From Prorocentrum cordatum (Eukaryota), in assembly GCA_963575745.1 (NCBI GenBank), contig CAUYUJ010000092.1, forward strand, positions 186,001-250,000: 64,000 nucleotides of DNA, read 5' to 3'. Positions 38,110 through 58,598 of the stretch are shown here, piece after piece (within the stretch, counting starts at the first letter, position 1; every line of letters begins with the position of its first letter). Below the pieces are notes generated by a model. That model made no database searches, was not told the DNA's origin, and saw nothing but the letters and a program-made list of their open reading frames with translations. The position numbers and the translations under genes are program-made.

Positions 38110-38270
38110 ATGAGACATCCTCAACAATGATTTTTCTCGGTTGAGGCATCCTCAACGAATTTTTTGTTTCGCTTGAGACATCCTCGAAATATTTGCCTGT
38201 TTCGCTGGAGACATCTTCAAATTATTGCTTATTTCGCTTGAGACATCCTTGAAATCATTGCTTGTTTCGA
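38110..38270. repeat. 32-bp repeat array (left terminal, ~5 units)
   Basis: Core GTTTCGCTTGAGACATCCTCGA plus a ~10-nt variable linker. Confidence 0.9.
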
Positions 38271-38286: not shown

Positions 38287-38691
38287 CTAGGGCGCACCCT
38301 CGAGCGCCCACTTGCGCTGGAGCCGCTCGGAGAGCGCCTCTACAACAGGCTCGGGCTCAAGCTTCGGGCGCTTGCCGCTGCCGTCCTCGGGCTCGTCGTC
38401 CTCGGGCTCCTCGTCCTCTGGTTGCGGTGCGGACTTGCGGCGCTTGGCGTTCTGCCAGGCTCGCTTCTCCTCGTTGTCACTGCTGCGAGGGATCTCCTCC
38501 AGCTCCTTGGTGCGCTTCTGGCTCTTGACGTCCTCGAGCGGTTTCTCGTTCCCGCTCCCCTTGGAGTCCTGGAGCGGTTTCTCCTCCTTCTTGGGGTCCT
38601 CGCGCTTCTCGCTCTCCATGGGTGCCTCGAGCGGTAGCTGCGTGTTTATCTCGGGCATATCACCCATGTCGAAGAAGCTCGGCAAAGACAT
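38287..38691 (-). CDS. Accessory gene 5: 134-aa charged, disordered protein with NLS-like AKRRK and KRPK
   Basis: The first in-frame ATG downstream of the SL-like motif is at 38691, with GC3-rich codons. The upstream part of the 193-aa ORF is repeat-array read-through. Confidence 0.65.
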   Translation of the reverse strand: MSLPSFFDMGDMPEINTQLPLEAPMESEKREDPKKEEKPLQDSKGSGNEKPLEDVKSQKRTKELEEIPRSSDNEEKRAWQNAKRRKSAPQPEDEEPEDDEPEDGSGKRPKLEPEPVVEALSERLQRKWALEGAP

Positions 38692-38768: not shown

Positions 38769-38792
38769 CTTGAGCCACCAAATGGCTACGGA
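38769..38792 (-). promoter_or_regulatory. Genome-encoded dinoflagellate spliced-leader-like motif
   Basis: The minus strand reads TCCGTAGCCATTTGGTGGCTCAAG, which is DinoSL DCCGTAGCCATTTTGGCTCAAG with a 2-nt insertion. It lies 77 nt before the ATG. Confidence 0.85.
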
Positions 38793-38805: not shown

Positions 38806-39125
38806 TGTTTCGCTTGAGACGTCCTCAAAGAAAGCATTCCTTGTCTCGCTTGAGGCATCCTCGACCAATCTCTCGTTTCGCTTGAGACACCCTCTAAATA
38901 AATGTTTGTTTCGCCTGAGGCATCCTCAAAGAATTGCTGGTTTCGCTTGAGACATCCTCGACATGATTGTCTGCTTCGCTTGAGACCTCCTCGAACTAAG
39001 TGTTGGTTTCGCCTGAGACATCGTCAAATAATTCCTTATTTCGCTTGAGACATCATTCAAGTAAGTGTTTGTCTCGCTTGAGGTGTCCTCGAACAATTGC
39101 TTATTTCGCTTGAGACATCCTCGGA
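38806..39125. repeat. 32-bp repeat array (~10 units) upstream of gene 5
   Basis: Same core motif and orientation as the other arrays. Confidence 0.92.
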
Positions 39126-39196: not shown

Positions 39197-41112
39197 TCAA
39201 ATATTCATAACCTTGCTCTCGAACTCCTTGGCTGCCCTCGCAAGGAAACCCTTCTTGCGCACCGCCTCGAAGTGCTCGCCCATGCACGCCCTGCATCCTT
39301 TGGACCCGTCCTTGAGCATCTCGCATGTCTTGCAATCTTTGGCCGCTTGCAGGGTTGCCTCGAGGGTGGCGTGCTTGGGCTCGGTCTCCAGCGGATCCTT
39401 GGCCTTGCTCTTGGCCTTGCCCCTGGGTTTGGCCTTGCCCTTTGCCTTGGCCTGGGCGGCAGCGTTGTCGCTCGCATCTAGCAGCTTCTGGATCCACTCG
39501 TTGCCTCGCGAGTAGATGTCCTTGATGGTGCTCGGAGGCAGGCGGCCTTCGCCGCGGATCTCGCGCAGGGCGCGCTCGAACCACCTCGTCACCCACAGGC
39601 CGCAGGACCACCCGTCAAGTTGAAACCTCGTGTTGCTCGGAGTGGGGCACTCGACCTCAGGGCCCAGGAGCTTGTGGAGGATCCTCGTGGCCGCCTGCTT
39701 GGCGGACTCGGACGGTACCTTGAGGGCGTCTCGGTACTCGATGGCCTTGTTGGCGTGCTCCTTGGTCACCTTGAGGTAGGCGTAGTGCGCTGGGTTCTCG
39801 CTGTGGACGCAAATGAGGATGCGCTTGGCGTTCTCGACTTTTTCGAGGCAGGCCTTCTGCTCGTTCTGGGCCTCGGTCGCGGGCTCGTCGTCGCCTTGGT
39901 CTCCTCGAGCCCAGGTGACAGCGATTGTCGGCTCGATCAGCAGGACATCCTCGGGAACGCCCGCTCGCTCCTCGATCTCGCCTATCAGGGCTCGCACTGT
40001 GCCGAGCTCGAGGGTGCGGTTCTTCTTGACGAATTCGCAATTCGTGATCGCCAGATGCTTGGCGAGCTCGGTGCGCCTGAACATCCTGCACACTCGCCAA
40101 TCTATATTGAGGGGCTTGGCGGGCGTCCACTCCTGCTCGACCACGACCTCCCAGGCTCGAGGGCCGATGGGCCACTGGGGGCGACCTCCCGCTCGGCTTC
40201 CGCTGCCCTTCCGCTCGGCTTCCGCGCGAGCTCCCGCTCGGCTTCCGCGTCAGATTCCGCCCTGCTTCCGCTGGCCCTTCTGCTCGGCTTCCGCCCATGC
40301 CCCATTGCCCTTCGAGCCTGGCTGGAACGGATCTGGAAGATCGCCGCCGTCCCGACCTCGAGCACCCGGAGCTGGCACTCGCCCTCGCAGTCTTTGACGC
40401 GTCAGACGTATTGAACTCTGCCGCGCCTGCCCTCGTGCAAGCACTCCTCGTCGACCCGCGCGATCTTGCCGTGCCAGGGCGAGTCCTTGCAAGGCTCGAG
40501 GCCCCCGTTCTGCTTCTTCTTGTCTGTTGCCGTCTTGTTATGCTTCGCTTTCAGTTTCTGCTTGAGCCCTTTTCTGAGAAGGAGGTCTTCGGCTTGGGGG
40601 CTCGCCCTGTCGGCGTCGCTCTGGCGATGCCTCGACTCTTGCTCTCGAGTGCGTCTCGGCCCTTCTGCTCGCGATTCGCCTTGTTCCACTTGGCCGCCAG
40701 CTTGCCCGCGCGCTGGCCTCGGAACTTGCCCGCCCACTTGTTCTTGCGCTCGCTTCCCTTGCGAAGCCTGACTCGGCCTTCCAGGGCGCGCGGGAACTGG
40801 GTATTCTTGATGCGCTCCTCTGGCGGCTTGAGCATCTCTCGCTGCTCGTCTGCGAGCCCGAGGTCTAGCCCTGCAAGCTCGAGGAGGCAGGGGTTCTCGT
40901 CGTCCGCGTAGCCCCTCGGCAAGTCCTCGACTGCGAAGCACTCGCCGTCTAGCAAGCTCCAGTCGGGCACTGGGGGCACGTTCTCGGGCCAGCTCGCAGC
41001 GGCCTCGAGCTTCCCCCTGGCCAGTCTCGGCTCGATGCCTCTGCCAGCCTCGATGGTGCAGCTCCAGGGTCCGTCGCCCGTCGCGATCTTCAGCTCGTTC
41101 TGCTCGGTCGGC
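39197..41112 (-). pseudogene. Exon 2 of the transposase fusion: basic linker, Ulp1/C48-like cysteine protease and C-terminal CxxC...CxxC; disrupted by two frameshifts and one stop
   Basis: ILICVH..AHYAYLKV, YRDAL and RFQLDGWSCGLWVTRW give the H-D-Q-C order of clan CE/Ulp1 proteases. The tail contains CKTC..GCRAC. Coding-like sequence is stitched from ORFs 40551..40979, 40402..41259 (3' part), 40102..40365 and 39197..40144. Confidence 0.75.
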
Positions 41113-42842: not shown

Positions 42843-43714
42843 GAGGGGGGGAGGAGAAAGAGATAGAGAAATATATAGAGATATATAGATAGGGGAGAGA
42901 GAGAGAGAGAGAGAGAAAAAATGAAGAAAGAAATAAAGAAAGAAAGAGAGAGAGAGAGAGAAAAAAAAAGGAAAACGTGAGAGAGGAAGAAGAGGAGGGA
43001 GAGAGAATAAGGAGGAGGAGGAGGAGGACGAGCAGGAAGAGGAGAGAAGGTAGGGGAGCAGGAGGCAGAGGAGGGGGAGGGGAAGGGGCAGGATGAGAAG
43101 GAGGAGAAGGAGGAAAAGAAAGGAGGAGCAGGAGGAGGTGGAACAGAACAGGATTCCTCAAGCACTGCTTGTTTCGCTTGAGACATCCTTGAACAAACGC
43201 CTGATTCGCTTGGGACATCCTCGAACGAATGCTTGAGGTCGTCTTGGAAGCTTTCTCGGAGATCCTCCTGGGATTCTCTTGAATTCGTTGAAGATCCAAG
43301 CTCCAGGCTCGAGATCCCCCTCCTCCTCCTCCTCCTCGACCCCCTCCTCCTCCTCCTCTTCTTCCTCTTCTTCCTCTTCCTCCTCCTCCCCCCTCCTCCC
43401 TCCTCCCTGCTCCCTCCTCCCTCATCCCTCTTCCCTCCCGCCTCCCTCTCCTCCTCCTCCTCATCCTCCCCCTCCTCCTCCTCCTCCTCCTTATCCTCCT
43501 CCCGCCCGCCGCCTCGCTGCGAGCATCTGGTTCGCTTGAGACATCCTTGAACAAACGCCTGATTCGCCTGAGACATCCTCGAACGAATGCTTGAGGTCGT
43601 CTTGGAAGCTTTCTCGGAGATCCTCTTGAGATTCTCTTGGAATCGTTGAAGATCCAAGCTCCAGGCTCGAGATCCTCCTCCTCCTCCTCCTCCTCCTCCT
43701 CCTCCTTGACCTCC

Positions 43715-43977: not shown

Positions 43978-44101
43978 TCCTCCTCCCCCTCCTCCTCCTC
44001 TCCTCCCCTCCTCCTCCTCCTCCTCCTCCTCCTCCTCCTCCTCCCCTCCTCCTCCCTCCCCCCATCCTCCTCCCCCTCCTCCTCCTCTTCCCTCCCACCG
44101 C

Positions 44102-46236
44102 CTCGCTGCGAGCATCTGGTTCGCTTGCATGCCTTGGAGCGGCACGGCCTCCTTGTTCCCCTCGCGGAAGCGCTTGTAGGCCTCGGGGATGCAGTAGATG
44201 CACTCGTAGGGCCCCCAGCTGCTCGGGTACCTGTAGTCTTTGGTGGGGTCGGCCTTGGCCCCCTGGAACCACTCCTGCTCGACCGCCCAGTGGATCTGGC
44301 TCTTGACCTTGCGGATCGCCGCCTTGAGCTGGCTGTGCTCGCGGGCGTCGGGTTCTTGGAGGAAGCTCGCCACGTCTGGGGCCGTCGGCGCGTAGACGAT
44401 GTTCTTGAGCCAAGCTCGGAGCGTCGCGCTCTCGGTCCACTGGCTCGACAGGCAATCTGCGAAGACGAGGGCTTGGCCGTGCTCTTGCTCGATGAAGTCA
44501 ATGGTCCAACTTGCAATGAGCTCGTCCGTCCAGGCTCCCGGCTGGCCCCAGATGCCGATCTGCTCGAAGATCTCGGCGCGCTCCTCGGGGTCGAACTCGA
44601 GGAGGGCTTGGCGCCAACCCTTCATGATCGTGCCGATGTTCTCGCCTGCTCGGAAGACCTCGGCCTCGCCGTCGCTCCGCTCGTAGCGGACGTCTCGGAG
44701 CCAGGTGCCGCTCTCGAGGTTCATGTCGGAGATCTTGCAGTGCCTCGCGCACGGGACTGGGGGCACGCTGCGCTTCTTGGCCGACCTCGGCCCCCGGCTC
44801 GGGTCGAACCACCCCTCGACGCCCGAGATGTTGATGAGCGTGAGCCTGTACTTGTCGCCCGCGCTCGAGTATGCTTGGTCTACTTGCTGCTTCTTGTCGC
44901 CTTGCTCACCGTAGAACTTCTCTCGCTCGGCCCCCCAAGCTGCCCTGTCTGTCTCGGCCTGCGTCTCGCGGAACTTGCGGCGGAGCTTCTGGATCCGGGC
45001 CTTGTGGCTTGCGCCCTGGAGCTCGGACTCGTGGAGGTAGACTTTCTCCTCGCCTCGGAGCTTGAGCCAGAGCGCGGTCGCGTCGACGACGACCACGCTC
45101 GCGTCTCGCCTGCGCTCGGCGAAGGCCTCGGCGTCTTCGACGAAGAGGCTGAGCTCCTCGGCGCTGCCCCTCGCCACGAGGTGCTGGAACCTGTCGGCAG
45201 TGGCCCAGGTCAGCTTGGCCTTGCTCTCGGAGAGGGTCTTGTTCATCTGTTCCGAGAGGCGCTGGCCCTTGTGCCCTGACGCGCGCAGCCTCGGGAGCAC
45301 GACTTCGTTGATCCACTTCGAGTCCTTGCGGGCCAAGTTGTTGATCTTGAAGGTCGCGAGCCGCTGGGTGATTCTCTTGAGAATCTCGGCGTTGTACCAG
45401 GGGTGGCTCGTGTTCTTGAGATGGAGCTGCTTGTCCTTCTCCCACTCGAGCTCGTACTTGAGCCTGGTCAAGATCGTCTTGTGGCGAACTTCGTGGCCGT
45501 ACATGTGTCCCCGCTTGAACCAGATCTCGAGTCGGCCCACGACTCCCTCGAGGGGGCGCTTGGGGCACGCCAGGCCAGGAGTGAAGTTGTGCACTCTCGC
45601 GCCCTGGCTCTTGTTTGCCTTTGCCTGATGCGGCCGGACTCGGCCGCAGGCTCGGATGCCGTTCTTGCCGAGCCTCGCCACGGCGACCAGCTTCTCGAGA
45701 GACGCCCCCTTCTTGTTCCAGTTCTTGACTGCCTCGTAGGGCCAGCGCCACTTCTCGGTGAGCTGAGTCTTGACGCCGACTGGGGGCTGGGAAAAGTCCG
45801 CGAGCTCGTGCTTGTCGGCCTGCTTGCACCAGCCGAGTACGATCTGGAGCTTGCACTGCGCGGGCGGGTCTCGGCGCAGGGTGGGAGCTGCTCGGGGCTT
45901 GTGCGTCCCGCGGTACTTGCGACTCGAACCCTGGGGTCTGCCGCCCCTCTTCGGCCCCCGAGCGACGCCTCGGCCGCTGTCGTCGGGGCCGAGCACCTTC
46001 CCCTCGGTGCTCGCCTTCGCTCGGCGCTCAGCAGCGGCTGCGAGGCGCTCCTGCTCGGTCGTCTCCGCCTCGAGCCTCTTCGCCTCGAGCTCCTGGAAGA
46101 ACATCGCCTTTGCCTCGGGGGACAGGTAAGGCGAGCTCCTGAGCTTCTTGTGGGAGCTCGGGGATTCCACCGGACTCGAGCTTGCAAGTCCACATAAGCT
46201 TGACAGGCTCGACTGCCGCTTGATCGGCGCGCCCAT
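44102..46236 (-). CDS. Exon 1: pogo/Tc5-like (DDE_1 family) DDD transposase
   Basis: Putative triad VVVDATALW ... VFADCLSSQ ... ASFLQEPD, with 35 residues between D2 and D3 (DD35D). CENP-B/Tc5 HTH-like LEIWFKRGHMYGHEV. The frame is open for ~711 codons; the rest of the 1169-aa ORF is microsatellite. Confidence 0.8.
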
Positions 46237-46302: not shown

Positions 46303-46325
46303 CTTGGGGCAAGAACGGATACGGA
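46303..46325 (-). promoter_or_regulatory. Degenerate SL-like motif upstream of the transposase
   Basis: The minus strand reads TCCGTATCCGTTCTTGCCCCAAG followed by CCTTTCGAG, 66 nt before ATG 46236. Confidence 0.55.
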
Positions 46326-46438
46326 TGTTGTCCTTGCGGAGCTGCTGCTGCCTGAGACCTCGAATACGTGCCTGTATCGTTTGAGAGCTGTTGCTGTTGT
46401 TCGCTTGAGACGCCCTCGAATAAGAAAAGGAAGGGAAG

Positions 46439-46670: not shown

Positions 46671-46910
46671 TACGTCCTCGAGTAAGTTCTTGTTTCGCCT
46701 GAGACATCCTCGAACGAATCTCTCGTTTCGCTTGAGACATCCTCGGCAAATCTCTCATCTCGCTGGAGACATCCTCGAGCAATTGCCTGTTTCGCTTGAC
46801 ACATCCTCGAAAAACATATCTCGTTTCGCTTGAGACAGCTTCGACAACTCTCTCGCTTTGCTTGAGACGCCCTCGAGTATATGCTTGTTTCGCTTGAGAC
46901 ATCCTCGAGG
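46670..46910. repeat. 32-bp repeat array (~7-8 units)
   Basis: Same core motif. Confidence 0.92.
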
Positions 46911-47022: not shown

Positions 47023-47373
47023 CTAGAGTGGCTCACTCGAATCAACCCTGGGTTCTCTCGACTGAAGCTCGTCGTCCTGGAACTGCGTGGGCTCGCCTGG
47101 CTGGAGCTGCTCGGCTGTCTTGCCGCGCACGAGAGAGGCCCTCCACTTGTTCTCTTGGGTGGGGTCGAGCTCGGTCTCGACCTCCGTCTCGGTCTCCGCC
47201 CTCTGCTGCTTGACGTCGGTCTTGACCGCAGTCTCGATCTTGAGCTCCGTCTCGATCTTCACGGTTGTCGGCTTGGACTTCCTCGAGTTCTGCGTTGTTT
47301 TTTTCGCGACAGAAGGCTTGGGCTCCCTCGGCGCCTGCGCTGGCTTCTTGGAGACAGTCGCCCGCTTGGCCAT
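47023..47373 (-). CDS. Accessory gene 3: 116-aa protein with a basic N-terminus and tandem psi-K-x-E/D motifs
   Basis: ATG 47373 (MAKRATVSKKPA) follows an SL-like motif; the protein contains VKIE, LKIE and VKTD. Confidence 0.6.
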   Translation of the reverse strand: MAKRATVSKKPAQAPREPKPSVAKKTTQNSRKSKPTTVKIETELKIETAVKTDVKQQRAETETEVETELDPTQENKWRASLVRGKTAEQLQPGEPTQFQDDELQSREPRVDSSEPL

Positions 47374-47425: not shown

Positions 47426-47448
47426 CTTGAGCCAGAGTGAACTACTGG
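47426..47448 (-). promoter_or_regulatory. Degenerate SL-like motif
   Basis: The minus strand reads CCAGTAGTTCACTCTGGCTCAAG then GATTTCGAG, 52 nt before the ATG. Confidence 0.6.
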
Positions 47449-47449
47449 A

Positions 47450-47820
47450 AGAGACATCCTCGAAAGCACTCTCGCTTCGCTTGAGACATCCTCGACGAAT
47501 CACTTCTCTCTCTCTTGCCAGATCTTCGAAATTATGTGTTACTTCGCTTGAGAGATCCTCGGCACATAGCTTGTTTCGCTTGAGACGTCCTCGACATACT
47601 TGTTTGTTCCGCTTGAGACTCCTCAGGCAATTGATGCGTTTGCTTGAAACATCCTTGAAATAATTTGATGTTTCGCTTGGGACATCCTCAAACAATTGCT
47701 TGTATCGTTTGAAACGTCCTCGCATGCGTGCTCGTTTTGCTTGAAATATCATCGAACAAATGTTTATTCCGATTGAGACATCCTCTGCAACTCTGTCGCT
47801 TCGCTTGAAACGCCCTCGAG
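47450..47820. repeat. 32-bp repeat array (~11 units) upstream of gene 3
   Basis: Same core motif. Confidence 0.92.
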
Positions 47821-47883: not shown

Positions 47884-48670
47884 CTAACTCGAGCGCCCTT
47901 CGAGTATCCACTGGCTGTGCGTGCGCTCGTAGGGCGCCCTGGCTTGCGCCTCGGCGTCTGAGGCTGGCTCGGTCGCCCCAGCGTCGGGGCCCGAGAACAC
48001 TGCGTAAACCTCGGGTTCCTCTACTAGGCGCTTGCCCTCCTCGGGCACGAGCTCCTGGCGCTCGGCGCCCTCGTCGTCAAGCTCGTCGGTATCGCTCTCG
48101 GGCTGCTCTGGTGTTTCGGGCTCTCGAGACCTCGGGCTCCCGACCTCGTCCTCGGACTCCGCGGGCGTCTCGAATTCGTCTCGGTCTCGTCATCGCTTCT
48201 TCTCGCCGCTGCTGATGACGGCCTGGGGCTCCTTCTCGCGGGCCTCGATTTCCTCGGGCGTCTCGGGTTCCTCGAGCTCTTGGCGCTTGGTGCCCTCGTC
48301 GTCAAGCTCGTCGGTCTCGCCCTCGGGCTTCTGGTGTCTCGGGCTCTCGAGACCTCGGGCTCTCGGCCTCGTTGTTCGGGAGCTGGGCGTTCTCCTCGAG
48401 CGCCTCCTGCTCCTCGAGACACTGCGCGTTCTCGGGCGGTCCTGTGAGCCCGAGCTCTTGCCGCATTGCCTCGAACATGTCTTGGGCGTTCCCGAACGTC
48501 GCGAGGCTCTCCTCGGAGAAGATGTCTCGCCAATCGCTCGGGAGACGAGCAGCCATGTCCTCGGGAAAGATGCCTCGCCAACGGCTGCGGGGGCGGTCAG
48601 CCATTGATCTCGGCGATGTCGATCGAGACCCTTGCCTCTGAGATTGCCCGAACTCGATGCGCTGTTCCAT
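47884..48670 (-). pseudogene. Accessory gene 2: acidic protein with an internal repeat; one frameshift (~48330) and one internal stop (48190-48192)
   Basis: ORF 48302..48670 continues into the frame of 48190..48834 and through TGA to the stop at 47884. SPRSREPETPE.PE..TDELDDEG..RQEL occurs twice. Confidence 0.6.
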
Positions 48671-48707
48671 TGTCGCCTTGGAGCAAATATCTTGGATAGC
48701 TCGAAAT

Positions 48708-48729
48708 CTTGAGCCACCAAATGGCTACG
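48708..48729 (-). promoter_or_regulatory. Genome-encoded SL-like motif (same GG-insertion variant as 38769)
   Basis: The minus strand reads CGTAGCCATTTGGTGGCTCAAG then ATTTCGAG, 37 nt before ATG 48670. About three 32-bp repeats lie immediately upstream (48745-48830). Confidence 0.85.
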
Positions 48730-48884
48730 TATATTTCTGCTGCTCGTTTCGCTTGAGACGTCTTCGAAGAACGTGTTTGTTTCGTTTGGATGGTCCTCGA
48801 CGAGCGTGCTCGTTTCGCTCGAAGCCTCCTCCAACCTTTACTAGTATCGCTGGAGGGGCCCTTTGAGGCCTTTCCCATGCTACC

Positions 48885-49184
48885 ATAGGGCCTACCTCTA
48901 GGCCCGCCCTAGGCCCACCCCTAGGGCCTACCCCTGGGGCTACCCCAGGCCTACCCCTAGGGCGTGCCCCTAGGCCTACCTTAGAGGGCATGCCTCTAGA
49001 GCCTACCCCTAGGGCCTACCCCCACGCCTACCCCTAGAGCCTAAAATTAGGCCTACACCCCATAGGTCTACCCCTAAGCCTACCTCTAGGCCTACCCCTA
49101 GAGCCTTCCCCTAGGCCTACCCTAGGCCTACCCCTAGGGTATCCCTAGGCCTACCCTAGGCCTGCCCATAGGGCCTTCAGTAGG
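48885..49184. repeat. GGCCTACCCCTA satellite (reverse complement of the 46439-46670 motif)
   Basis: Direct reading. Confidence 0.9.
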
Positions 49185-49743
49185 GCGCCAGGGGTGAGGA
49201 GAATAAATGTTGATAGTTAAATAGACAGATAGGAAGAGAAGAAGAGGAAGAGGAGGCAGGGGAGGAAGAGGAGGAAGAGGATAAGGAGGAGGAGAAAGAG
49301 CAAGAGGAGGAAAAAGAGAAGCAAAACACCAAAGTTCAAAACGCATTAGATTTAAATTACAAGCGCTTAATGAAAATTGCAAGTTTAGCTCATGTGCTTA
49401 GTTTTCCCCGGGTAATCAACCCCTGCGATAAACAAGTTCAGGGTGGCAGGGAGACAAGAAGAAAAAGAAATAGAAAGAGAGAGAGAGAGATACATAAATA
49501 AGACACGAAAGAACCGAAGGATGAGAAGGAGGAAGAGCAGGGGAAGCAGAGGAAGAAGAATATGCAAAAATCCAAAGTTCAAAACTTATTAGATTTAATT
49601 TGTAAGCGCTTAATGGAAATTAAAATGTTCATCTGCTCGCGTAGGGTAGCTCATGCGCTTAGTTTTCCCAGGATAATCAACCCCAGCGATAAACAAGTTC
49701 AGGGCGCCAGGGGGAGGAGGAGAAAGAATGAGAGAGAGATAGG

Positions 49744-49785
<42 letters not shown>

Positions 49786-49989
49786 TATATATAGAGAGAG
49801 AGAGAGAGACAGAGAGAAAGAGAGAGAGAGACAGAGAAAGAGAGAGAGAGAGAGAAAGCAATAACAAAAAAAAAAGAGAAAGAGAAAGAGAAAGAGAGAG
49901 AGAGAGAGAGACAGGACGAGGGAGGAGGGAGGAGGAGGGAGGAGGAGCAGGAGGAGGAGGCCCATGACAGGATTCCTTAAGCACTGCTT

Positions 49990-50409
49990 GTTTCGCTTGA
50001 GACGTCCTTGCGAATTTGGTTGCTTCGCTTCAGGCATCCTTGAAAACATGCTTGCTTCACTTGAGACATCCTTGGACAAACGCTTGATTCGCTTGAGGCA
50101 TCTCGAAAGAATGCTTGGGGTCCTCTTGGGGCCCTTCTCGGGTATTCCCTTGGCGTGTCCTTGGTCGAGGGTCCAAGCTCGAGGCTCCAGGCCCGAGATC
50201 TCAGCTCGAAGCCCAGTGGGCCTCGAGAGCGTCGAGGTTCGAGGCTTGCCTCGACGCTCGTCGCCGCCACCGGAGGGAGGAGAGGCGGCGACGGCACCGG
50301 CGACGGCAGATGCGACGACGGCGACGACGACGACGACGACGGCGGCAGCGACGACGGCGTCGTCGTCGTCGTCGCCGTCGCCGCCGCCACCGCCTTCATC
50401 CTGCCTCCG

Positions 50410-50449
<40 letters not shown>

Positions 50450-50740
50450 CCTCCTCCTCTTCCTCCTCCTCCTCCTCCTCCGCCTCCTGCTCCTCCTGCT
50501 GCCCCCCTCCCTCCCCTCCCTCTCCCCCCCCATCTCCCCTCTCACATCCCCGAGCAATTTCTTGTTTCGCTTGAGGCGTCCTCGAGCAAATCTCTCGTTT
50601 CGCTTGAGACATCCTCGACAAATCTCTCGCTTTGCTTGAGACATCCTCGAGTATTCGCTTGTTTCGCTTGAGACGCCCTCGACGAGCCTCTCGCTTCGCT
50701 TGCGACATCCTCGAGCAATTCTTTGTTTCGCTTGAGACTC
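49990..50740. repeat. 32-bp repeat arrays (~4 and ~6 units) separated by microsatellites
   Basis: Same core motif. The start acaggattcct.aagcactgcttgtttcgcttgagac is duplicated at ~43148. Confidence 0.88.
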
Positions 50741-50769
50741 CCTCTCCTCCCTCCCCCCTCCGTCCTCGG

Positions 50770-51067
50770 TCGACCCTCGGGTCGAGAGTCCAAGGTTCTC
50801 GGGCCAGGGATCCGAGATCTCGTGATCTCGGATCAACGATGGCCCGAGGCTCTCGGAGCCTCGATCCGAAGATCGATCGAGGATCGAGCCTCGCCGAAGG
50901 GATCTAAGACGAGATGACCTTGAGACAGGGGCTCGATCCTCGATCGACCCTCGGATCGAGAGCCCAAGGTTCTCGGGCCAGGGATCCGAGATTTTGTGAT
51001 CTCGGACCAACGATGGCCCGAGGCTCTCGGAGCCTCGATCCGAAGATCGATCGAGGATCGAGCCTCG
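50770..51067. repeat. TCGA/GATC-rich duplication with 174-bp period, 3' of gene 1
   Basis: tcgaccctcgg...gatcgagcctcg starts at 50770 and 50944. Confidence 0.85.
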
Positions 51068-51211
51068 ACGGAGTTGCGCTCGGTGTTACGCTCGAGAAGG
51101 GGCTGGCGAAGCCTCTCGGGAAACCTCTCGGAAAGCTCGAGGGAACGGGCCTTGATCGCCACTCGCTCCTCGATGAGGCCTCGATGAAACCTCGCGCTGG
51201 GCCTGCTCGGC

Positions 51212-52279
51212 TCAAACCTCCATCTCGATCTTCTCGAACTCCTGCTTGCTCGTCTTCTCGACCTTCATCTCCTCGTACTCATTGTTGGTCTTCGCGTAGC
51301 TCGGGAAGCTAGTCTTGATGAACACATCGAAGAGCATATTCTGATGCTCGAGCTTCTTCTTCTCCTCGATGTCCTCGTCGCGCTTGAGGCGCTTGGCGGC
51401 GGTGTACTTGTGCACGTCGAGCTCGAAAGCCTTCTTGGCCACCTTGCTGACTTGCCAGCGCCGCGCCACGATGGCGCTCGTGGCGCAGATGCGCTCGCTT
51501 GCGTCACCCTCGAGGCAAAACCGCTTGAACTCGTCGAAGTAGTCCTTGGCCTTCTTGGGCATGATTGCTACCGACTCGAACTGCTCCTTGCCCTTCTTGG
51601 CGCTGGCCCTCGGCAAGACAGACTTGAATTGCTTGTTCACTGGAAGCATCACCACGTACAGCGCTTGCAGATCTTGGGGGGTCTCGCCGAGGACCTGCTT
51701 GACGACCTTGGTCGCGGCTCTCTCGGGCATCATCTCGGCCTTGTCGCCGAGGAGCGCGTCGTGCGTTTTGGCCTCGTCGAGCAACTCCGCTCGGAAGCTC
51801 GGCAGCATCCTGAACAACTTCTCGACGTTCGTGTCCTGGTCGTCGAAGCCGTCGAACATCTCGGTGCTCCCCTCGATGTGCGTCTTGTAAAAGATCGCAC
51901 AGAGCAGCTCGCCGCGCCGCTTGTCCTTGCCGTGGAAGATGCCCTCGTACTGGATGCCCTCGAGGCTCCCCGTCTTGAGGGCGCTCGCGAGGGCGGCGTT
52001 CTTGCTGTTCTTGTGCCACAGCGCGGAGCCGCCCCGGCAGTAAAAGTTCGCCATTCTCGAAGCGTCGGTAGCCTCGCCGCTCGATTGGCACTGCCTCATC
52101 TCGGCGCAGCCTGCCTTCTCGGCGATGTACTCGAGTGTCTTGTTCTGCACCTCGATGGCCTCGTTCTGCTTCTCGAGCAGCTTGGACATCTGCTCCAAAA
52201 CCTGGTTGTTTTGCTTGAGCAGCTCGATGACTTGGCTGTCCTCCGCGAGCTGGGGGCTCGACGCCTTGGGCGACGCCAT
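51212..52279 (-). CDS. Accessory gene 1: intact 355-aa protein of unknown function (N-terminal coiled coil, globular core)
   Basis: ATG 52279 (MASPKASSP) follows an SL-like motif. Heptad-like LLKQNNQVLEQMSKLLEKQNEAIEVQNKTLE and strong GC3 bias. The upstream part of the 540-aa ORF is repeat array. Confidence 0.8.
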   Translation of the reverse strand: MASPKASSPQLAEDSQVIELLKQNNQVLEQMSKLLEKQNEAIEVQNKTLEYIAEKAGCAEMRQCQSSGEATDASRMANFYCRGGSALWHKNSKNAALASALKTGSLEGIQYEGIFHGKDKRRGELLCAIFYKTHIEGSTEMFDGFDDQDTNVEKLFRMLPSFRAELLDEAKTHDALLGDKAEMMPERAATKVVKQVLGETPQDLQALYVVMLPVNKQFKSVLPRASAKKGKEQFESVAIMPKKAKDYFDEFKRFCLEGDASERICATSAIVARRWQVSKVAKKAFELDVHKYTAAKRLKRDEDIEEKKKLEHQNMLFDVFIKTSFPSYAKTNNEYEEMKVEKTSKQEFEKIEMEV

Positions 52280-52338
52280 GGCTCGGGAAGCTGAATCTCG
52301 AAAGCTTCGAAAGCTCGAAAGCTCGAAATCTCGAAGCG

Positions 52339-52359
52339 CTCGAGCCAGAACGGTTGCGG
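52339..52359 (-). promoter_or_regulatory. SL-like motif
   Basis: The minus strand reads CCGCAACCGTTCTGGCTCGAG: 16/21 identical to DinoSL, with all differences transitions. It is followed by tandem TTTCGA(G) copies. Confidence 0.7.
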
Positions 52360-52380
52360 GCGGGAGCAGGAGACTAGCTC

Positions 52381-53035
52381 GTTTCGCTGGATACATCCTC
52401 GAAAACGTGCTCGTTTCGCTTGAAACATCCTCGAACAAATCTCTCGTCTCGCTTGAGACATCTTCGACAAATCTTTCATTTCGCTGGAGACATCCTCGAG
52501 CAATTGCTTGTTTCGCTTGAGACACCCTCGAACAAAATTTGTCGTTTCGCTTGAGACGTCCTCGACAAATTTCTCCTTTCGCGTGACAAATCCTCGAGTA
52601 TATGCTTGTGTCGCTTGAGACATCCTTAAGAAACGTATTGTGTCGCTTGAGACGTCCTTCAGTGTATGCAAGTTTCGCTGGAGACATCCTCGAATGTATG
52701 CCTGTTTCGCTTGAGACATCCTCGACAACGTGCTCGCTTCGCTGGATACATTGTCGAAAACGTGCTCGTTTCGCTGGAGACATCCTCGAACAAATCTCTC
52801 GTTTCGTTTGAAACATCCTCGACAAATCTCTCATTTCGCTTGAGACATCCTCGAGTATATGCTTGTTTCGCTTGAGACATCCTCGACAAGTTATCGCCTC
52901 GTTTGAGACATCCTCAAATATTTGCTGGTTCCGCTTGAGACATCCTTGAAATATTGATCGTTTGGTTTCAGGTTGCCTCCCAAAATTATTGGTTTCGCTT
53001 GAGACATCCTGAAAAAACGTGTTCGCTTCGCTTGA
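52381..53035. repeat. Largest 32-bp repeat array (~20 units), at the right end of the element
   Basis: A 22-bp conserved core plus a 10-11-nt semi-variable linker; period 32-33. Confidence 0.95.
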
Positions 53036-53604
53036 TGTTGTTATCTCAACATGAGAAGGAAGTAACCTCGATGGCGAACTTTTCCCGTGATAATGAAGTT
53101 CGGCCTCCGCGCCCCCGCGCCCCCGACCAAACTCTTATTGGCCGACGATAAAAAACTCTAACTACTTAAGGGGGGATGGACATTATTATCGTGGGCATGC
53201 GGTTATGTTGCCTCCTCAAGGGGCGCTTACTGGCCAAATCTGCAGCAATCGGGTCGAGGGGGCCGAGGAGGACACATTATAGAACCCGGCACGTTTGGCA
53301 ACCAGCCCATCCACGAAGACGAAATGTCAATCAGGAATTTGATCGTAGAGTCGTGTTTCGTCATTCGCCTGCCGTTGCTCGGACGCGGCGGCTAATTACG
53401 AGCATGAGGACGACGACGAGGACGAGGACGGCAACGACGACGACGACGTCGTTTGGGCGCCGCAGCGGCGAGGGCGAGGGCGAGGACGAGGACGGCGACG
53501 AAGACGACGACGAATGGCGTCGACGACGACGTTGACAAGGACGACCAGGACGAGGACGGCGACGACGACTGTGAAGACGATGACGATTCGAGGAACAAGC
53601 AACG

Positions 53605-53768: not shown

Positions 53769-55301
53769 AAGTTGTTTGTTCCCCGAGTCATTCCATTTTG
53801 GTCGCAAGCACGCTTATGGAGACCATTGCCGAGGACCAGGCCTCAAGACGTCATGAGGGCGTGTGCAGGAATGGTTTCAGCATGTTGGGTAAGCTTCTGT
53901 ACGACAGCGGCACGTTGGACATGCTTCGGCTATGCGTGCAGAGCGCGCATCTTCTAGTGACCAGCTGGCCTGGTATCTGGAAAGGCACGCAACGCAAAGT
54001 CTCTCCGCGCCTGGAAAGATAGCTGAAAGGCAAATGTAGAGGGTAATAAGGGGGGGCGAGATTTCTCTTGGTGATTGCTGTGCCCGTCCGATCACGCTCG
54101 GAAGTGGCAGGGGGTGCTAGATCACTTTCTTCTCGCGGCGGGAACCGCAGAATCTCCCGGGAGTTTGCGAAAAGATAGATCGAAGCCCTCCTTGAGACAG
54201 GTGCGCGCCACGGCGGTCGGGCGCGACGCCGCCAGGGGCCGCCTCGCTGGAGCCTACTCGGCAACCGTGCTGGAGCGGCTGGGCATCGCAGGGCCGCGCA
54301 GGCCGAAGACTCCTCCACCTCCTCCTCCTCCTCCTCCTCCTCCTCCTCCTCCTCCTCCTCCTCCTCCTCCCTCCTCCTCCTCCTCCTCCTCCTCCTCCTC
54401 CTCCTCCTCCTCCTCCTCCTCCTCCTCCCTCCCTCCCTGGGGCGCCCGCCCCCCCAGCCCCCGCCGCACGCGACGGGCGACGTCGGCGGTGGGGGGGGGC
54501 CCCTTCCACGGCGGGTCCGATGCGGGGGTTCCTCCATGACCACCGCCTGGGGGATCGATCTTCGGGGGCCTCGGCTGGCGGAGGGTGCGATCGCATTCGA
54601 GCTCTGGGAGGGCCAAGTATATCCACATCCACCGCCCGCCCGGGAGGTCCACGAAGATCGATCCCCCGCCAGAGGGTATGGAGAAGTCCCCGCCTCGCAG
54701 CCAAGCACCCTAGCGAGGGCGAGCGGGTGTGTCAGAGCCCCGAATCATCAGGAGTAACTCGGGTCAGGGCTAGCGGGCGATTTGGGGGGCAGGAAAATTT
54801 TGGGGCTGGCCTTATTCGTGGCCTCTGGGCTTCCTGGCCTTCGGGCTTCCATGCGTCCCGCGGCCTGGCTACCCCAGGAGGGGTGCGGCGGAGTGCGTTC
54901 GCCCTCTCAGCCTTTGGCCGCTTAGCGGTGGCGGATTTCGGCGTGGGGCTGCCACGCTGTCTGCTCTCCTTCCTCCTTCTTTCTGCTGTCTGGTGAGGTT
55001 GGCTGATTGGATTCCGTCGCGTGGCGGCCCCTGGGCACGCCACTGGCCGCGCGCGGCCATTGCCACAGCGAGCGCGGAGGCATTTGCGGGGGTTACGCGC
55101 ATGCCCCGCTGGGCTCGCTGTGCAGCTTGCGGGCCCTGCAGTATGGTGACGCCACCAGTCTGTGCCGATCTGGATGCATTGGGCCCTGGAGGAGTTCCAG
55201 TTCGGGCCAGCCTGGCGGTGCCGGTTCTTTTTCGCATGCCCACAGTTGGTGCGAGAGCGCCGCCCTACTCTGGCATGTTGGTACAGCCCAACAATATTTT
55301 C

Positions 55302-56216
55302 ATGATTCATAAACTCGTTTATGCTGCAGGAAAACTATGAGGAGCAGCCCCACGTGTGTTCGCCTCCACTCCTCAGTTCCTGCACGCTCAATGCCTGCGC
55401 AGCGGGCTGCGGTGTCGGCGGCCGGCGCTTTTCTGCGCGAAGCGGCGGAAGTATGCCCACCTTGCTCTGTTCGTGTGTATTCTGGTGCGGTCTCGCATGG
55501 CGGTTCGCCCGCGGTGCTGGGGTCTCGTCTGCTGGGCCGATCGTGTCTCGCAGTTCTTCTGTTGCTGCTCCCCCGCGCTGGCTCCTTGAAGCCAAATCGA
55601 GAACGCTCCCTGATAGGAGCAGCGGCGAAAAACTCGCTGACAGGGGCTGCACAAACAAGACAGGCTCCCTGATAGGAGCGGCGCCTCCGAAGCCCCCTGA
55701 AAGGAGCTGCGCCTGCGTGCTCCCTGATAGGAGCTAGCGGTGCCTAGCGCTCCCTGAAAGGAGCTGCGCCTGCGTGCTCCCCGACAGGAGCGGCGCCCTA
55801 AAGCTCGTTTTTTGCGTGTTCCCTGACAGGAGCAGCGGCCGAAAACTCCTTGACGGGAGCGGCGCCCCAAAGCTCCCTGATAGGAGCGGCGCTTCAAAGC
55901 TCCCTGACAGGAGCGGCCCCCCAGAACAGAAATTCGCCGAAGGGGGCGGCGCCCAATGCTCCCTGAAAGGAGCTGCGCCTGTGTGCTCCTCGACAGGAGC
56001 GCTGCCCCCCAGAGCTCCTTCCTGTGCTCCCTGACAGGAGCAGCACCCCCAAGCTCCCTGAAAGGAGCTGCGCCTGTGTGCTCCCAGACAGGAGCGGCGC
56101 CCCCGAAACTCTCTAGCAGGAGTCGCGCCTGTGTGCATCCTGGGGCGGCTCCGTGGCGCTGCGCCAGCGCGCTCCCCAGTGACAGCTTGGCGCCTGTCTG
56201 CCAGCTTTCTGTCCGC
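55302..56216 (+). repeat. Split direct repeat A1
   Basis: Begins atgattcataaactcgtttatgctgc, as at 59035 and 63605. Contains a GCTCCCTGA(C/T/A)AGGAGC array. Confidence 0.92.
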
Positions 56217-57275: not shown

Positions 57276-58598
57276 ATGGCTTTCTCCCCCGGCGACGTCT
57301 CTGCCATGATTGCCACTGCGCCGAGCGGGGCCTTCAACAAGGCCAGCGCTGACCAGATCCGCGACTGGGTCGACTTCGCGCTGAATGTCGAGCCCAGCGC
57401 GGCGGAGAAACACGACCTGTTCTACTACGTGTCGGTGGCCCGCCTCTTGGCGGAAACGATCGGCAGCACCTCGCTCTCGGATTTCGAGGATCCACGCATG
57501 CGCGAGATGATTGAGGCAGCGATTGTTGCGAACGATTTGCCTTGCGCCGCAGAGCAGGATCCAGCATGGAAGGCCTGTCGTCTTCGCACTCAAGGTGCAG
57601 ACCAAGTGCGCCCAAGCTGCACCACCCGCCCGCTCGGCCCCAGAAGCCGGCGCTGGGTCGAGCGACGCGGCAGGAATGGCCGAAGCTGTGAAACAGCTCG
57701 CAGAACTACAGACCCAGGCGCTCCAGAACGGCAAGCCGGAGGGTCTCAGCTTCAAGCTTCAAGACAGGATCGATGAAGTGGGCTTGCAGAATTTCGATAA
57801 AGACACCCTCCCGTCCGAGGAAATCTTGGCGAAGTTCGAGGCCGGAGCCAAGATCGCCAACGACCAGGGCCAGGCTTGGATCGGCTCTGCAGAAGGAGAA
57901 GATCTCCGCGATCATCACCGCCCAGCACGGAGTCGCACCCCTCTCGTCGACGCGGTCGTGGGCGACGGCTCCTACGAGGATCGCGCGAGACAGAGTGCGG
58001 CCGCCAAGCGCGGAAGCGCTTGGATCGATAAGATCGATTACGTGAGCTTCGCGACCTTCATGGGGCATCTCCACGAGTGGGGTTTCAAGGTAATCCTCAC
58101 GAAGGCGTGCAGCATGGCGGACTTTTTCTCCCACGTGCACATTATGATCCGCATCGCTGAGGAGAACGCCGGGGTCAGGACGGCGTTTCAATGCGACGTC
58201 CTCCAGCGGAGGGCCATGGCCAAAGCGCTCGAGAGGGACGAGACCGATTTGAGCAGGTACCTTACAAGGATCGATGTTGATCTCCTGCGCACGGCCAAAG
58301 ACAAGGTGGATAAACGCTTCGCGGAGCTCGCTCGTGCATCTGGCGCGCCCAAGGGTCAGTCCAAGGGCCAGCCCAAGGGCGCCTCCAAGAGCTACGGCGA
58401 CGGGGGCAGCCACGCCTCCAGAGCGCATCCTCCGGCGGCAAGGGCGGCGAGAGCGCTAAGGGCGACAACCGGCGCGTGCGTTCGCCGCCCGCGCGGCACA
58501 AGGGCAGCGCCGGTGGCGGCCAGCAGCATCGGTCGCGCAGCCCACGCGCTGGATGGCAGCAGTCCGGCCAGTGGGACAAGCAGTCCTGGAGCAAGTGA
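57276..58598 (+). pseudogene. ORF1/gag-like protein with two compensating frameshifts (~57545 and ~58420)
   Basis: ccaccATGG start (MAFSPGDVSAMIA). The middle is in the frame of ORF 57511..58782. The KG/RSRSPR-rich tail GGKGGESAKG...WSK* returns to the first frame. Confidence 0.7.

What the first reader, a model, noticed from the sequence alone, without database searches (positions are those of the whole stretch)
52381..53035. Oriented 32-bp arrays with a 22-nt constant core and 10-11-nt variable linker
Seen: ~20 units here and several dozen more in arrays at 38110, 38806, 43170/43530, 46350/46670, 47450, 48745, 49990 and 50540, all in one orientation. Linkers recur as a few types (caaatctctc, gtatatgctt, aaacgtgctc, gcaattgctt). 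The period is about three helical turns. Inference: phased binding sites (iteron- or promoter-like) for an element-encoded protein, recombination sites for cassette shuffling, or a source of small RNAs. The constant-core/variable-linker pattern implies selection on the core.
Basis: partly seen in the sequence, partly recalled or inferred. Interest (0 to 1): 0.8.

Follow-up and report, generated by a model that had tools for sequence, protein, structure and literature searches.

The report
Conserved 22-bp box arrays before dinoflagellate genes
The 32-bp repeats are real: a conserved 22-bp box, repeated in tandem, fills the spacers just upstream of several intronless genes that carry a relict spliced leader in a Prorocentrum-like dinoflagellate, which makes it a candidate control element in a group with no defined promoters.

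Summary
The core TTTCGCTTGAGACATCCTCGA occurs 50 times at up to 3 mismatches and 66 times at up to 5. All copies are on the + strand and all lie in 38.1-53.0 kb; shuffles give 0.

The new point is context. The genes here run on the minus strand. Five arrays each end 0-72 nt before a relict dinoflagellate spliced leader (DinoSL), and an ATG-ORF starts 37-77 nt after it.

A metagenome scan with the core alone found 15 contigs. Eight encode the same 355-aa orphan family beside the array, at 29-46% identity for full-length matches. Five carry a relict DinoSL.

Flanks are better conserved than the coding sequence. The same core also occurs with 20-nt and 42-nt spacers. In DNA runs the array has far higher depth than the gene.

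My best reading (about 0.45) is a DNA-level protein-binding box array in the intergenic spacer, acting as a promoter-proximal or terminator/insulator element. Rivals are a neutral homogenised satellite, a landing pad or portable 5' module for retrocopies, and an RNA-level role. No RNA data were available. The "transposase" is unproven. No paper holding the core string was found.

The parts
52382..53013 (+). Main array: 19-20 units of a 22-bp box plus a 10-11-nt linker. It lies upstream, in gene sense, of the 355-aa gene.
53034..53135 (+). 'Head' sequence at the distal end of the main array. It occurs once in the window but is high-copy in DNA runs.
   Evidence: Depth 1784 (X1) and 2290 (X3) in bin 53052-53135, and loose ends of many contigs read the same sequence. 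Single copy in the window and absent from the loci.
52339..52361 (-). Relict DinoSL E, 5 edits from the canonical sequence, about 20 nt after the last box.
51212..52279 (-). Gene E: intronless 355-aa ORF of an orphan family. The ATG is 59 nt after the relict spliced leader (SL).
50770..51065 (-). Two tandem near-perfect hairpins of about 135 nt in the 3' flank of gene E. They are conserved in L003, L007 and L015.
50565..50746 (+). Array of 6 units, downstream of gene E in gene sense.
49991..50107 (+). Array of 4 units.
48747..48833 (+). Array of 3 units.
48708..48731 (-). Relict DinoSL B (3 edits), 15 nt after the last box.
48302..48670 (-). ORF B (122 aa). The ATG is 37 nt after the relict SL. 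A Prorocentrum cordatum gene model (P0006) is 86-87% identical to the adjoining frames at 48559-48347 and 48288-48007.
47443..47820 (+). Array of about 12 units, some degenerate.
47426..47449 (-). Relict DinoSL C (5 edits), directly abutting a truncated unit.
47023..47373 (-). ORF C (116 aa, lysine-rich at its start). The ATG is 52 nt after the relict SL.
46693..46908 (+). Array of 7 units.
46399..46419 (+). Single unit 72 nt before relict SL D.
46303..46326 (-). Relict DinoSL D (5 edits).
44098..46236 (-). Gene D: 713-aa conserved part of a long ORF with 9 homologues.
43172..43582 (+). Two pairs of units (43172/43204 and 43530/43562) inside a duplicated block flanked by TCC repeats.
38808..39124 (+). 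Array of 11 units. It starts about 75 nt after the stop of the protease-like ORF.
39197..40084 (-). ORF of 295 aa that may be a Ulp1/C48-type protease (a lead only).
   Evidence: No Pfam C48 hit.
38769..38792 (-). Relict DinoSL A (2 edits, full-length), 15 nt after the last box.
38287..38691 (-). ORF A (134 aa). The ATG is 77 nt after the relict SL.
38135..38252 (+). Array of 4 units starting just after the stop of ORF A. It is the last array of the region.

Best explanation
The 32-bp arrays are the intergenic spacers of a co-oriented cluster of intronless genes on the minus strand, in a dinoflagellate genome close to Prorocentrum cordatum. Each gene looks like a retrogene. Each array starts 20-190 nt after the stop of one gene where an annotated ORF precedes it (about 470 nt, beyond two hairpins, after gene E). 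It ends 0-72 nt before the relict spliced leader (DinoSL) that marks the 5' end of the next gene.

The working part is the 22-bp box, which reads TCGAGGATGTCTCAAGCGAAAC on the gene's sense strand. The spacer between boxes is free to differ in sequence and length.

I infer that the box is a double-stranded DNA site for a sequence-specific protein. Repeating it in the spacer would build a promoter-proximal control element, or a terminator/insulator, that sets where transcription of the downstream SL-tagged gene starts or where upstream transcription stops.

Shown: the anatomy, the link to relict SLs and ORFs, the cross-locus conservation and the high copy number. Inferred: protein binding and any effect on transcription.
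For: 1. Position. Six DinoSL-like hits at up to 5 edits lie on the minus strand of the window. Five of them lie 0-72 nt beyond an array end: 38769, 48708, 47426, 46303 and 52339. Six shuffles gave 1-6 such hits per whole window, both strands together. The majority consensus of 8 aligned relicts equals the canonical DinoSL of PMC5585692. ATG-ORFs of 134, 122, 116, over 713 and 355 aa start 37-77 nt after the relicts.

2. The link holds elsewhere. The core alone retrieved 15 metagenome contigs. Seven encode the 355-aa family next to the array, at 29-46% protein identity for the five longer matches. An eighth holds an N-terminal fragment. Five of the 15 have a relict SL at up to 5 edits, always on the strand opposite the cores.

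3. Flanks outlast the coding sequence. For the window against L007, the array and leader are 73-83% identical, the coding sequence (CDS) 41-64% and the 3' flank 70-88%. For L007 against L015, the array differs at 2 of 141 sites while CDS codon positions 1/2/3 differ at 11.4/10.5/10.2%.

4. The core is independent of its spacer. The same box occurs at a 64-bp period with a 42-nt GC-rich spacer (L013, L008; also seen in runs X1 and X4) and at a 41-bp period (L001, L014). The 42-nt spacer is not detectably related to the 32-bp unit.

5. A DNA-level role. In L003 and L004 two near-perfect boxes (0-1 mismatch) lie upstream of the same gene family in the flipped orientation. A + strand hairpin in the core shows no covariation.

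6. Specificity. The scans found 0 viral contigs. In 185,579 prokaryote genomes there were 2 isolated single hits, against about 1 expected by chance by my own arithmetic.
Against: - No expression, transcription-start or binding data exist here. No RNA run was listed.
- Six of the 11 arrays in the window are not followed by a relict SL within 100 nt. These are 38135, 43172, 43530, 46693, 49991 and 50565; they abut low-complexity DNA or the region's end.
- Arrays vary from 1 to 20 units, show a 3-unit higher-order repeat, and have summed word depths from about 100 to about 7800 against 20-90 for the gene in X1. All of this is typical of satellite DNA.
- Once unit subtypes are controlled, the core is only 1.7-fold more conserved than the linker: 10.8% against 18.2%. 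The pairs are not independent and the alignments were chosen as the best.
- Pooled over 5 close locus pairs, core against outside is 3.0% against 5.3%, P = 0.07.
- The strict co-orientation may simply be inherited with duplicated cassettes.
- Each box carries an ATG on the gene strand. That argues against the boxes lying in mature 5' UTRs, but says nothing for binding.
Confidence: 0.45

Rival explanations
1. The repeat is a neutral minisatellite or satellite family. It expands by unequal crossing-over in the spacers of a duplicated gene cluster and is kept uniform by concerted evolution. It has no function, and the core/linker contrast is a by-product of old unit subtypes.
For: - A 97/98-bp higher-order period scores higher than the 32-bp period.
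- Array length varies from 1 to 20 units.
- Summed depth of the array bins is very high in 4 of 4 DNA runs.
- Units with identical linkers still differ at 14% of core sites (17 pairs). Linker types are therefore discrete inherited subtypes.
- Six of 11 arrays have no relict SL after them.
Against: - The same 22-bp box is kept with unrelated spacers of 20 and 42 nt.
- It stays next to the same gene family where the protein has diverged to 29-46% identity.
- L007 and L015 share position-specific unit variants, yet differ at only 2 of 141 array sites against about 10% at third codon positions. Homogenisation with other arrays would erase those shared variants.
Confidence: 0.25
2. The array, alone or together with the relict SL and the first part of the leader, is a preferred landing site or a portable 5' module for reverse-transcribed mRNAs. 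Unrelated retro-copied ORFs would then accumulate behind it in one orientation. They could arrive by site-specific target-primed insertion or by recombination at the SL.
For: - Five unrelated ORFs in a row each begin with a relict SL just after an array.
- ORFs A and B share the same SL variant and about 25 nt of leader, although their proteins differ.
- A TTTCGAGC-like motif follows the SL in B, C, D and E and in L007.
- The SL begins 15-20 nt after the last complete box in A, B and E.
- Retrogenes are reported as common in Prorocentrum minimum: 477 in a transcriptome survey (PMC12014239, passages read).
Against: - No poly(A) remnant or target-site duplication is visible at the 3' junctions of A, C or E.
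- Unit phase is not continuous across ORF C.
- The 355-aa family keeps the array and the same diverged relict (CAACCG... form) in members only 33% identical. This means the array, SL and gene are copied together, not joined anew each time.
- No reverse transcriptase or endonuclease gene lies in the region (Pfam scans).
Confidence: 0.15
3. The units act as RNA. One option is that they form part of the outron or 5' leader removed by trans-splicing. The other is that they are a source or target of small RNAs that silence this repeated gene cluster.
For: - The units keep a strict polarity relative to gene direction in the window (66 of 66). For the 355-aa family the polarity holds in 7 of 9 loci.
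- The gene-sense strand of the unit has no stop codon in any frame and carries AG dinucleotides.
- A 5-bp stem with a tetraloop can be drawn on the + strand.
Against: - The stem shows no covariation: there is 1 double change among 128 units and many one-sided breaks.
- Flipped boxes in L003 and L004 remain near-perfect (0-1 mismatch).
- A unit with no stop in any of three frames is expected by chance about 1 time in 5 (my estimate).
Confidence: 0.1
4. The units are iteron-like or subterminal binding sites for the transposase of a large DNA transposon that spans roughly 38-53 kb.
For: - The array-bearing region has sharp limits. There are no units outside 38135-53013.
- A high-copy 'head' sits at one end.
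- The region holds a long conserved ORF whose best, weak structural matches are the CENP-B DNA-binding domain (Z 6.7) and Mos1 transposase (Foldseek E 0.36-0.38).
- A possible C48 protease ORF is also present.
Against: - The transposase identity is not established: no Pfam or PDB sequence hit, and a model with pLDDT 55.
- Arrays at the two ends point the same way, not inverted, and are spread through the whole region.
- Only a match of about 10 nt was seen by eye as a possible terminal inverted repeat.
- The genes each carry a relict SL, which a DNA transposon's own genes should not.
- Arrays stand beside the 355-aa gene on short contigs. None of those contigs shows the 713-aa family, though they are only 1.1-2.3 kb long.
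Confidence: 0.05

Closest known systems
Relict-DinoSL retrogenes of dinoflagellates (Slamovits and Keeling 2008, cited within PMC5585692; Song et al. 2017, PMC5585692, abstract and passages read; PMC12014239, passages read)
   Same: Intronless ORFs are preceded, within 37-77 nt of the ATG, by a DNA-encoded copy of the 22-nt spliced leader. Several such genes are co-oriented. The T-run of the relict is well kept.
   Different: Published relict arrays are repeats of the SL itself, adjacent or with gaps, most often about 30 bp (PMC5585692). Here the repeated unit is not detectably SL-derived (P about 0.2). It is a different 22-bp box standing upstream of a single relict. No paper read here describes such a box.
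Repeated protein-binding elements of ribosomal DNA intergenic spacers, such as Xenopus 60/81-bp enhancers and the mouse Sal-box terminator repeats bound by TTF-I (recalled; no call)
   Same: A short conserved box is repeated in one orientation, with variable spacing, in the spacer between co-oriented transcription units. It lies both after one unit and just before the next promoter.
   Different: Those are Pol I systems with known binding proteins. Here the genes encode proteins, no binding factor is known and no function has been tested. This is a likeness in layout only.
Satellite or minisatellite DNA with higher-order repeats
   Same: Head-to-tail copies, a 3-unit higher-order period, variable copy number and very high genomic abundance.
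   Different: The arrays are tied to gene starts and relict SLs. One sub-segment is conserved with interchangeable spacers of 10-42 nt.
Subterminal repeats of CACTA (En/Spm), Mutator and hAT transposons, and plasmid iterons (recalled)
   Same: Many copies of a short site for an element-encoded protein.
   Different: Those sit within a few hundred bp of inverted termini, in both orientations. Here the copies are direct, dispersed over 15 kb between genes, and no transposase is proven.

Membership tests
Relict-DinoSL retrogene | A DinoSL-like sequence within 500 bp upstream of the ORF | tested here: met
   Five relicts at 2-5 edits lie 37-77 nt before ATG-ORFs. The consensus of 8 relicts equals the canonical SL. 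The SL sequence was taken from PMC5585692.
Relict-DinoSL retrogene | An uninterrupted, intron-free coding sequence | tested here: met
   Genes E (355 aa) and D (713 aa conserved part) align end to end with homologues without breaks. ORFs A, B and C are open, but no homologue was checked for A or C.
Relict-DinoSL retrogene | A poly(A) remnant or target-site duplication at the 3' end, and an intron-bearing parent gene | tested here: not met
   No A-run was seen at the 3' junctions of A, C or E. A parent gene could not be sought, because no genome is held.
Tandem relict-SL array (multiply recycled retrogene) | The repeated unit is itself a full or truncated DinoSL | tested here: not met
   The best local alignment of the unit consensus to DinoSL scores 14, against a shuffle mean of 11.2 (sd 2.4). 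Of the shuffles, 20% score as well. Only the hexamer CTCAAG and an AGCAATTTT stretch resemble it.
Satellite/minisatellite DNA | Head-to-tail tandem copies, higher-order periodicity and high copy number | tested here: met
   TRF periods of 32 and 97/98 bp. Summed word depth of the array bins runs from about 100 to about 7800, against 20-90 for the gene in X1.
Transposase-binding subterminal repeats / iterons | An element-encoded DNA-binding transposase or initiator | tested here: inconclusive
   The 713-aa family has no Pfam or PDB sequence match. The AlphaFold2 model has pLDDT 55. The best structural row is the CENP-B DNA-binding domain at Z 6.7, rmsd 8.6, below the tool's own caution line.
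Transposase-binding subterminal repeats / iterons | Repeats clustered next to inverted termini, in opposite orientation at the two ends | tested here: not met
   All 66 units point one way and lie between genes across 15 kb. No convincing terminal inverted repeat was found.
Structured RNA repeat | Base pairs kept by compensatory change | tested here: not met
   The five candidate pairs are 84-97% paired, with 1 double change in 128 units. Rfam found no family in the window.
Promoter-proximal or terminator protein-binding box array | Sequence-specific protein binding and an effect on transcription | not testable with these tools
   Only position and conservation could be tested.

The most novel reading that the evidence does not exclude
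The 22-bp box array, the DNA-encoded spliced leader and the short TTTCGAGC leader may together form a portable expression module of Prorocentrum-type dinoflagellates. On this reading the boxes recruit a sequence-specific factor, transcription starts at or near the encoded leader, and unrelated retro-copied ORFs are placed or kept behind the module. That would make it the first defined cis-regulatory element of dinoflagellate nuclear genes, and a cassette-like way of giving promoterless retrocopies expression.
Probability: 0.15. Interest if true: 0.85.

Novelty: new variant of a known kind. Interest (0 to 1): 0.6.

Why it matters
Dinoflagellate nuclear promoters and terminators are essentially undefined. 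A 2013 review (PMC5029490, passages read) says intergenic spacers lack known promoter elements and that one proposed 13-nt motif was never confirmed. Later work suggests that the T-run of the relict spliced leader serves as a basal promoter (PMC5585692).

A short, highly conserved box that stands in tandem directly upstream of relict leaders of several unrelated genes is a concrete candidate. It is kept where the neighbouring protein has diverged to about 30% identity, and it can be tested directly by gel shift, DAP-seq, 5'-end mapping or reporter constructs.

If it works, it would also help explain how promoterless retrocopies survive in these genomes. It could supply a part for expression vectors. 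If it proves to be only a satellite, it still marks a distinct class of spacer in a repeated cluster of orphan genes.

Tried and rejected
- **Iterated relict spliced leaders.** The 22-nt core has the same length as DinoSL, but the unit is not detectably SL-derived. Rejected.
- **RNA hairpin in the core.** No covariation. No Rfam family in the window and no tRNA.
- **Coding repeat.** The long minus-strand ORFs over the arrays are passive. The unit lacks stops in all three frames and its period is not a multiple of 3. A protein search with the array translation found 1 ENA protein at E 3e-10.
- **Expression.** No RNA holder was listed among 10 runs, so nothing can be said about transcription.
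- **Read laying.** Only Logan contigs of 4 runs were laid. Joints within the array (skips of 128-408 nt, steps back of 69-249 nt) fit copy-number variants or other copies, and I did not interpret them further. Parts without cover in X3 are not evidence.
- **355-aa protein.** No Pfam family passed its cut-off. There was no meaningful PDB sequence match. The AlphaFold2 model is all-helical at pLDDT 52.7 and was not searched further. The best Atlas score was 0.76.
- **713-aa protein.** See the membership test. No Foldseek row reached E 0.001.
- **Pfam scans.** Forty-six window ORFs gave only an EamA transporter at 7715-8653. Fifty-three ORFs from the loci plus 3 more window ORFs gave nothing.
- **Terminal inverted repeats.** The search was swamped by simple repeats.
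- **Whole genome.** Not held.
- **Earlier notes of the scan.** None near this place and none by sequence.
- **Prokaryote genome scan.** Two isolated single hits, taken as chance. The viral contig scan found none.
- **Supplements.** Those of the papers were not opened. Retrogene lists for P. cordatum or P. minimum there could bear on the claim.
Full report
**What the window is.** It is eukaryotic DNA, 52-66% G+C and very rich in simple and tandem repeats. It has no tRNA and no Rfam family, and no whole genome is held for it. The best protein matches of one of its genes are four "unnamed protein products" of the dinoflagellate Prorocentrum cordatum, at 49-75% identity. Earlier notes of this scan on other pieces of the same genome also called it a dinoflagellate.

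- The 21-nt core TTTCGCTTGAGACATCCTCGA has 50 matches at up to 3 mismatches. All 50 are on the + strand, and 100 shuffles gave none.
- Plus/minus counts are 62/0 at up to 4 mismatches, 66/0 at up to 5 and 74/0 at up to 6.
- All 66 hits at up to 5 mismatches lie between 38135 and 53013.
Most spacings are 32 bp; some are 33 or 34.
- TRF also finds a 97/98-bp (three-unit) period that scores better than the 32-bp one.

**Core against linker.**
- Core positions carry mostly 1-2 bits and linker positions 0.1-0.6 bits.
- Across 63 clean units, mismatch per site is 0.19 in the core and 0.46 in the linker. Units were picked by their core, which biases this figure.
- Seventeen unit pairs have identical linkers yet still differ at 14% of core sites. 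So much of the "variable linker" is a set of discrete subtypes arranged in higher-order repeats.
- In nine long alignments anchored on whole array segments, the core differs at 106 of 977 sites and the linker at 126 of 693, or 10.8% against 18.2%. These pairs were chosen as the best and are not independent.
- The contrast is real but smaller than it looks at first.

**The genes are on the other strand.** The unit has no stop codon in any frame on the minus strand, which creates long passive ORFs there. Real genes also run on that strand.

I scanned the window for the 22-nt dinoflagellate spliced leader. I first typed its sequence from memory and then confirmed it in PMC5585692.
- Six minus-strand hits have up to 5 edits. 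Five of them lie 0-72 nt beyond the end of an array, at 38769 (2 edits), 48708 (3), 47426 (5), 46303 (5) and 52339 (5). The sixth, at 44404, lies inside a coding sequence.
- Six shuffles gave 1-6 hits per window, both strands together.
- When eight relicts from the window and the related contigs are aligned, the majority consensus is exactly the canonical leader.
- Each relict is followed after 37-77 nt by an ATG-ORF of 134, 122, 116, over 713 or 355 aa.

Read in gene sense, the layout is: stop of gene n, then 20-190 nt, then the array, then 0-72 nt, then the relict leader, then a 37-77-nt leader that often begins with a TTTCGAGC-like motif, then the ATG of gene n+1. The array after gene E is an exception, starting about 470 nt past the stop, beyond two hairpins.

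Six arrays (38135, 43172, 43530, 46693, 49991, 50565) are not directly followed by a relict. They abut low-complexity DNA or the end of the region.

**The genes.**
- Gene E (52279 to 51212, 355 aa) has no Pfam family, no solved relative and a poor model. It belongs to a sizeable family. A word-index search found 12 homologues. A profile search of 1.84 billion representatives found 190 clusters at E up to 0.001, 108 at up to 1e-10 and 42 at up to 1e-30.
- Gene D is the 713-aa conserved part of an ORF starting at 46236. It has 9 homologues, no Pfam or PDB sequence match, and a model of pLDDT 55. Its best structural rows are the CENP-B DNA-binding domain (Z 6.7, rmsd 8.6) and, by Foldseek, Mos1 transposase at E 0.36-0.38. 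That is a hint of a pogo/mariner-type protein, not a demonstration.
- The ORF at 40084 to 39197 may be a C48-type protease. This rests on a motif seen by eye, plus Atlas neighbours at 0.88-0.89 in which 16-17% of members carry PF02902. Pfam itself gave no hit.
- One P. cordatum gene model (P0006) joins the C-terminal half of the gene E family to sequence matching 48559-48007. The order of at least two cassettes is therefore repeated on another scaffold.

**Related DNA elsewhere.** A scan of metagenome contigs with the core alone returned 15 short contigs of 1.1-2.3 kb. In every one the boxes are co-oriented, except an inverted pair in L012.
- Seven contigs encode the gene E family right next to the array: L003 at 42%, L004 at 46%, L015 at 34%, L007 at 33%, L002 at 29%, and L009 and L010 as partial matches. 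L005 holds an N-terminal fragment.
- Five contigs have a relict leader at up to 5 edits, always on the strand opposite the boxes. L015 and L005 have weaker versions.
- Counting the window, the boxes are antisense to the gene in 7 of 9 loci. They are flipped in 2, L003 and L004. Those two belong to one subfamily, so the flip was probably one event. The flipped boxes have 0-1 mismatch.

**Conservation profile.**
- Between the window and L007, the array and leader are 73-83% identical, the coding sequence 41-64% and the 3' flank 70-88%. That flank holds two near-perfect hairpins of about 135 nt.
- Between the closer pair L007 and L015, the array differs at 2 of 141 sites, the leader at 7 of 97, and the 3' flank at 15 of 229. 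The three codon positions differ at 11.4, 10.5 and 10.2%.
- In the three informative close pairs, boxes diverge less than the DNA outside: 1.1% against 9.5%, 2.4% against 8.1%, and 6.8% against 11.3%. Pooled over all five pairs, two of which are nearly identical, the figures are 3.0% against 5.3%, P = 0.07.

**The box is separable from its spacer.** L013 and L008 carry the same box at a 64-bp period with a 42-nt GC-rich spacer. That spacer is not detectably related to the 32-bp unit. The same long spacer appears between boxes in contigs of runs X1 and X4 (table 5c). L001 and L014 have it at a 41-bp period, about 110 nt before an ATG-ORF. So the "three helical turns" spacing is not a fixed property.

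**Abundance and specificity.**
- Contigs of four DNA or unknown-type runs were laid on 50700-53200. Array bins reach summed word depths from about 100 to about 7800, while the gene has 20-90 in X1 and 0 in X3.
- The roughly 100 nt beyond the distal end of the array (53034-53135) are equally deep. Many contigs run from a box into this same "head", yet it occurs once in the window and in none of the loci.
- Viral contigs held no match. The prokaryote genome collection held two isolated single matches, about what chance predicts by my arithmetic.

**What it is not.**
- It is not an array of relict leaders. The unit consensus aligns to the leader no better than 20% of its shuffles.
- It is not a supported RNA hairpin.
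- It is not coding.
- It does not look like transposon subterminal repeats. The orientation is direct at both ends, the units are dispersed between genes, and every gene is tagged with a relict leader.

**Most likely mechanism.** I commit to a DNA-level protein-binding box repeated in the intergenic spacer. It would act as a promoter-proximal control element for the SL-tagged gene downstream, or as a terminator/insulator for the gene upstream. My confidence is about 0.45. The anatomy, association and conservation are shown; binding and effect are inferred.

The main rival, at 0.25, is a functionless satellite kept uniform by concerted evolution. The higher-order repeats, variable length, abundance and the six arrays without a gene start all favour it. 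Next, at 0.15, is a landing pad or portable 5' module for retrocopies. ORFs A and B share the same leader variant and about 25 nt of leader in front of unrelated proteins, which favours it. The missing poly(A) and target duplications, and the co-inheritance of array, relict and gene in the gene E family, count against it. An RNA-level role (0.1) and transposase iterons (0.05) follow.

**Literature.**
- Relict leaders and retrogenes are well known. PMC5585692 reports repeated relicts separated most often by about 30 bp, and proposes the leader's T-run as a basal promoter (abstract and passages read).
- PMC12014239 reports 477 retrogenes in P. minimum (passages read).
- PMC5029490 states that dinoflagellate spacers lack known promoter elements (passages read).
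- The P. cordatum genome paper PMC10666404 says nothing on such repeats in the passages found.
- No paper in the library holds either strand of the core. Searches on minisatellite, intergenic, promoter and tandem repeat found nothing on it in the listings.
- Supplements were not opened.

Noticed in passing
55298-56216, 59031-59939, 63600-64000: Three direct copies (93-96% identical, about 920 bp) hold tandem 27-bp hairpin-like units (GCTCCCTGAAAGGAGC...). Each copy stands before + strand ORFs (57511-58779, 59954-61828, 61918-63336) that have no Pfam hit. This is a second, different 'array plus orphan ORF' arrangement, on the other strand.
   Followed up: no
50770-51065 (minus strand): Two tandem near-perfect hairpins of about 135 nt lie in the 3' flank of the 355-aa gene (fold z-score -9.2). 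The flank is 70-90% identical in contigs L003, L007 and L015, although the proteins are only 33-42% identical.
   Followed up: partly
53034-53135: A 'head' sequence at the distal end of the main array is as deep as the array itself in four DNA runs, yet occurs once in the window. It may mark the common start of such arrays or an element end.
   Followed up: partly
L007 vs L015 (gene E family): The three codon positions diverge equally (11.4, 10.5 and 10.2%) while both ORFs stay intact at 352 aa. This looks like relaxed or diversifying evolution of the protein beside much better conserved flanks.
   Followed up: partly
39197-40084 (minus strand): A 295-aa ORF carries a His/Asp/Gln-x-x-Trp-Ser-Cys-Gly pattern like Ulp1/C48 proteases. 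Atlas neighbours carry PF02902 in 16-17% of members (score 0.88-0.89), but Pfam gave no hit.
   Followed up: partly
24900-33000: About 8 kb of degenerate TCTTGGGGCC-type repeats with periods of 11, 21, 32 and 42 bp (about 10.5-bp phasing). A 418-bp higher-order unit spans 27441-28613.
   Followed up: no
46442-46588 and 48889-49172: Arrays of a 12-bp unit (GGGTAGGCCTAG) occur in inverted orientation to each other, bracketing ORFs B and C and their box arrays.
   Followed up: no
38769-38792 and 48708-48731: Two relict leaders share the same variant (TTTGGTGG in place of TTTTGG) and about 25 nt of following leader, in front of unrelated ORFs.
   Followed up: partly
29029-29519; 41312-41399; 7715-8653: A (GT)245 microsatellite, an A88 run beside C42 and (GA)45 runs, and an exon-like ORF with an EamA transporter domain (E 9e-15). 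The EamA hit is the only Pfam family above its cut-off in the window ORFs scanned.
   Followed up: no
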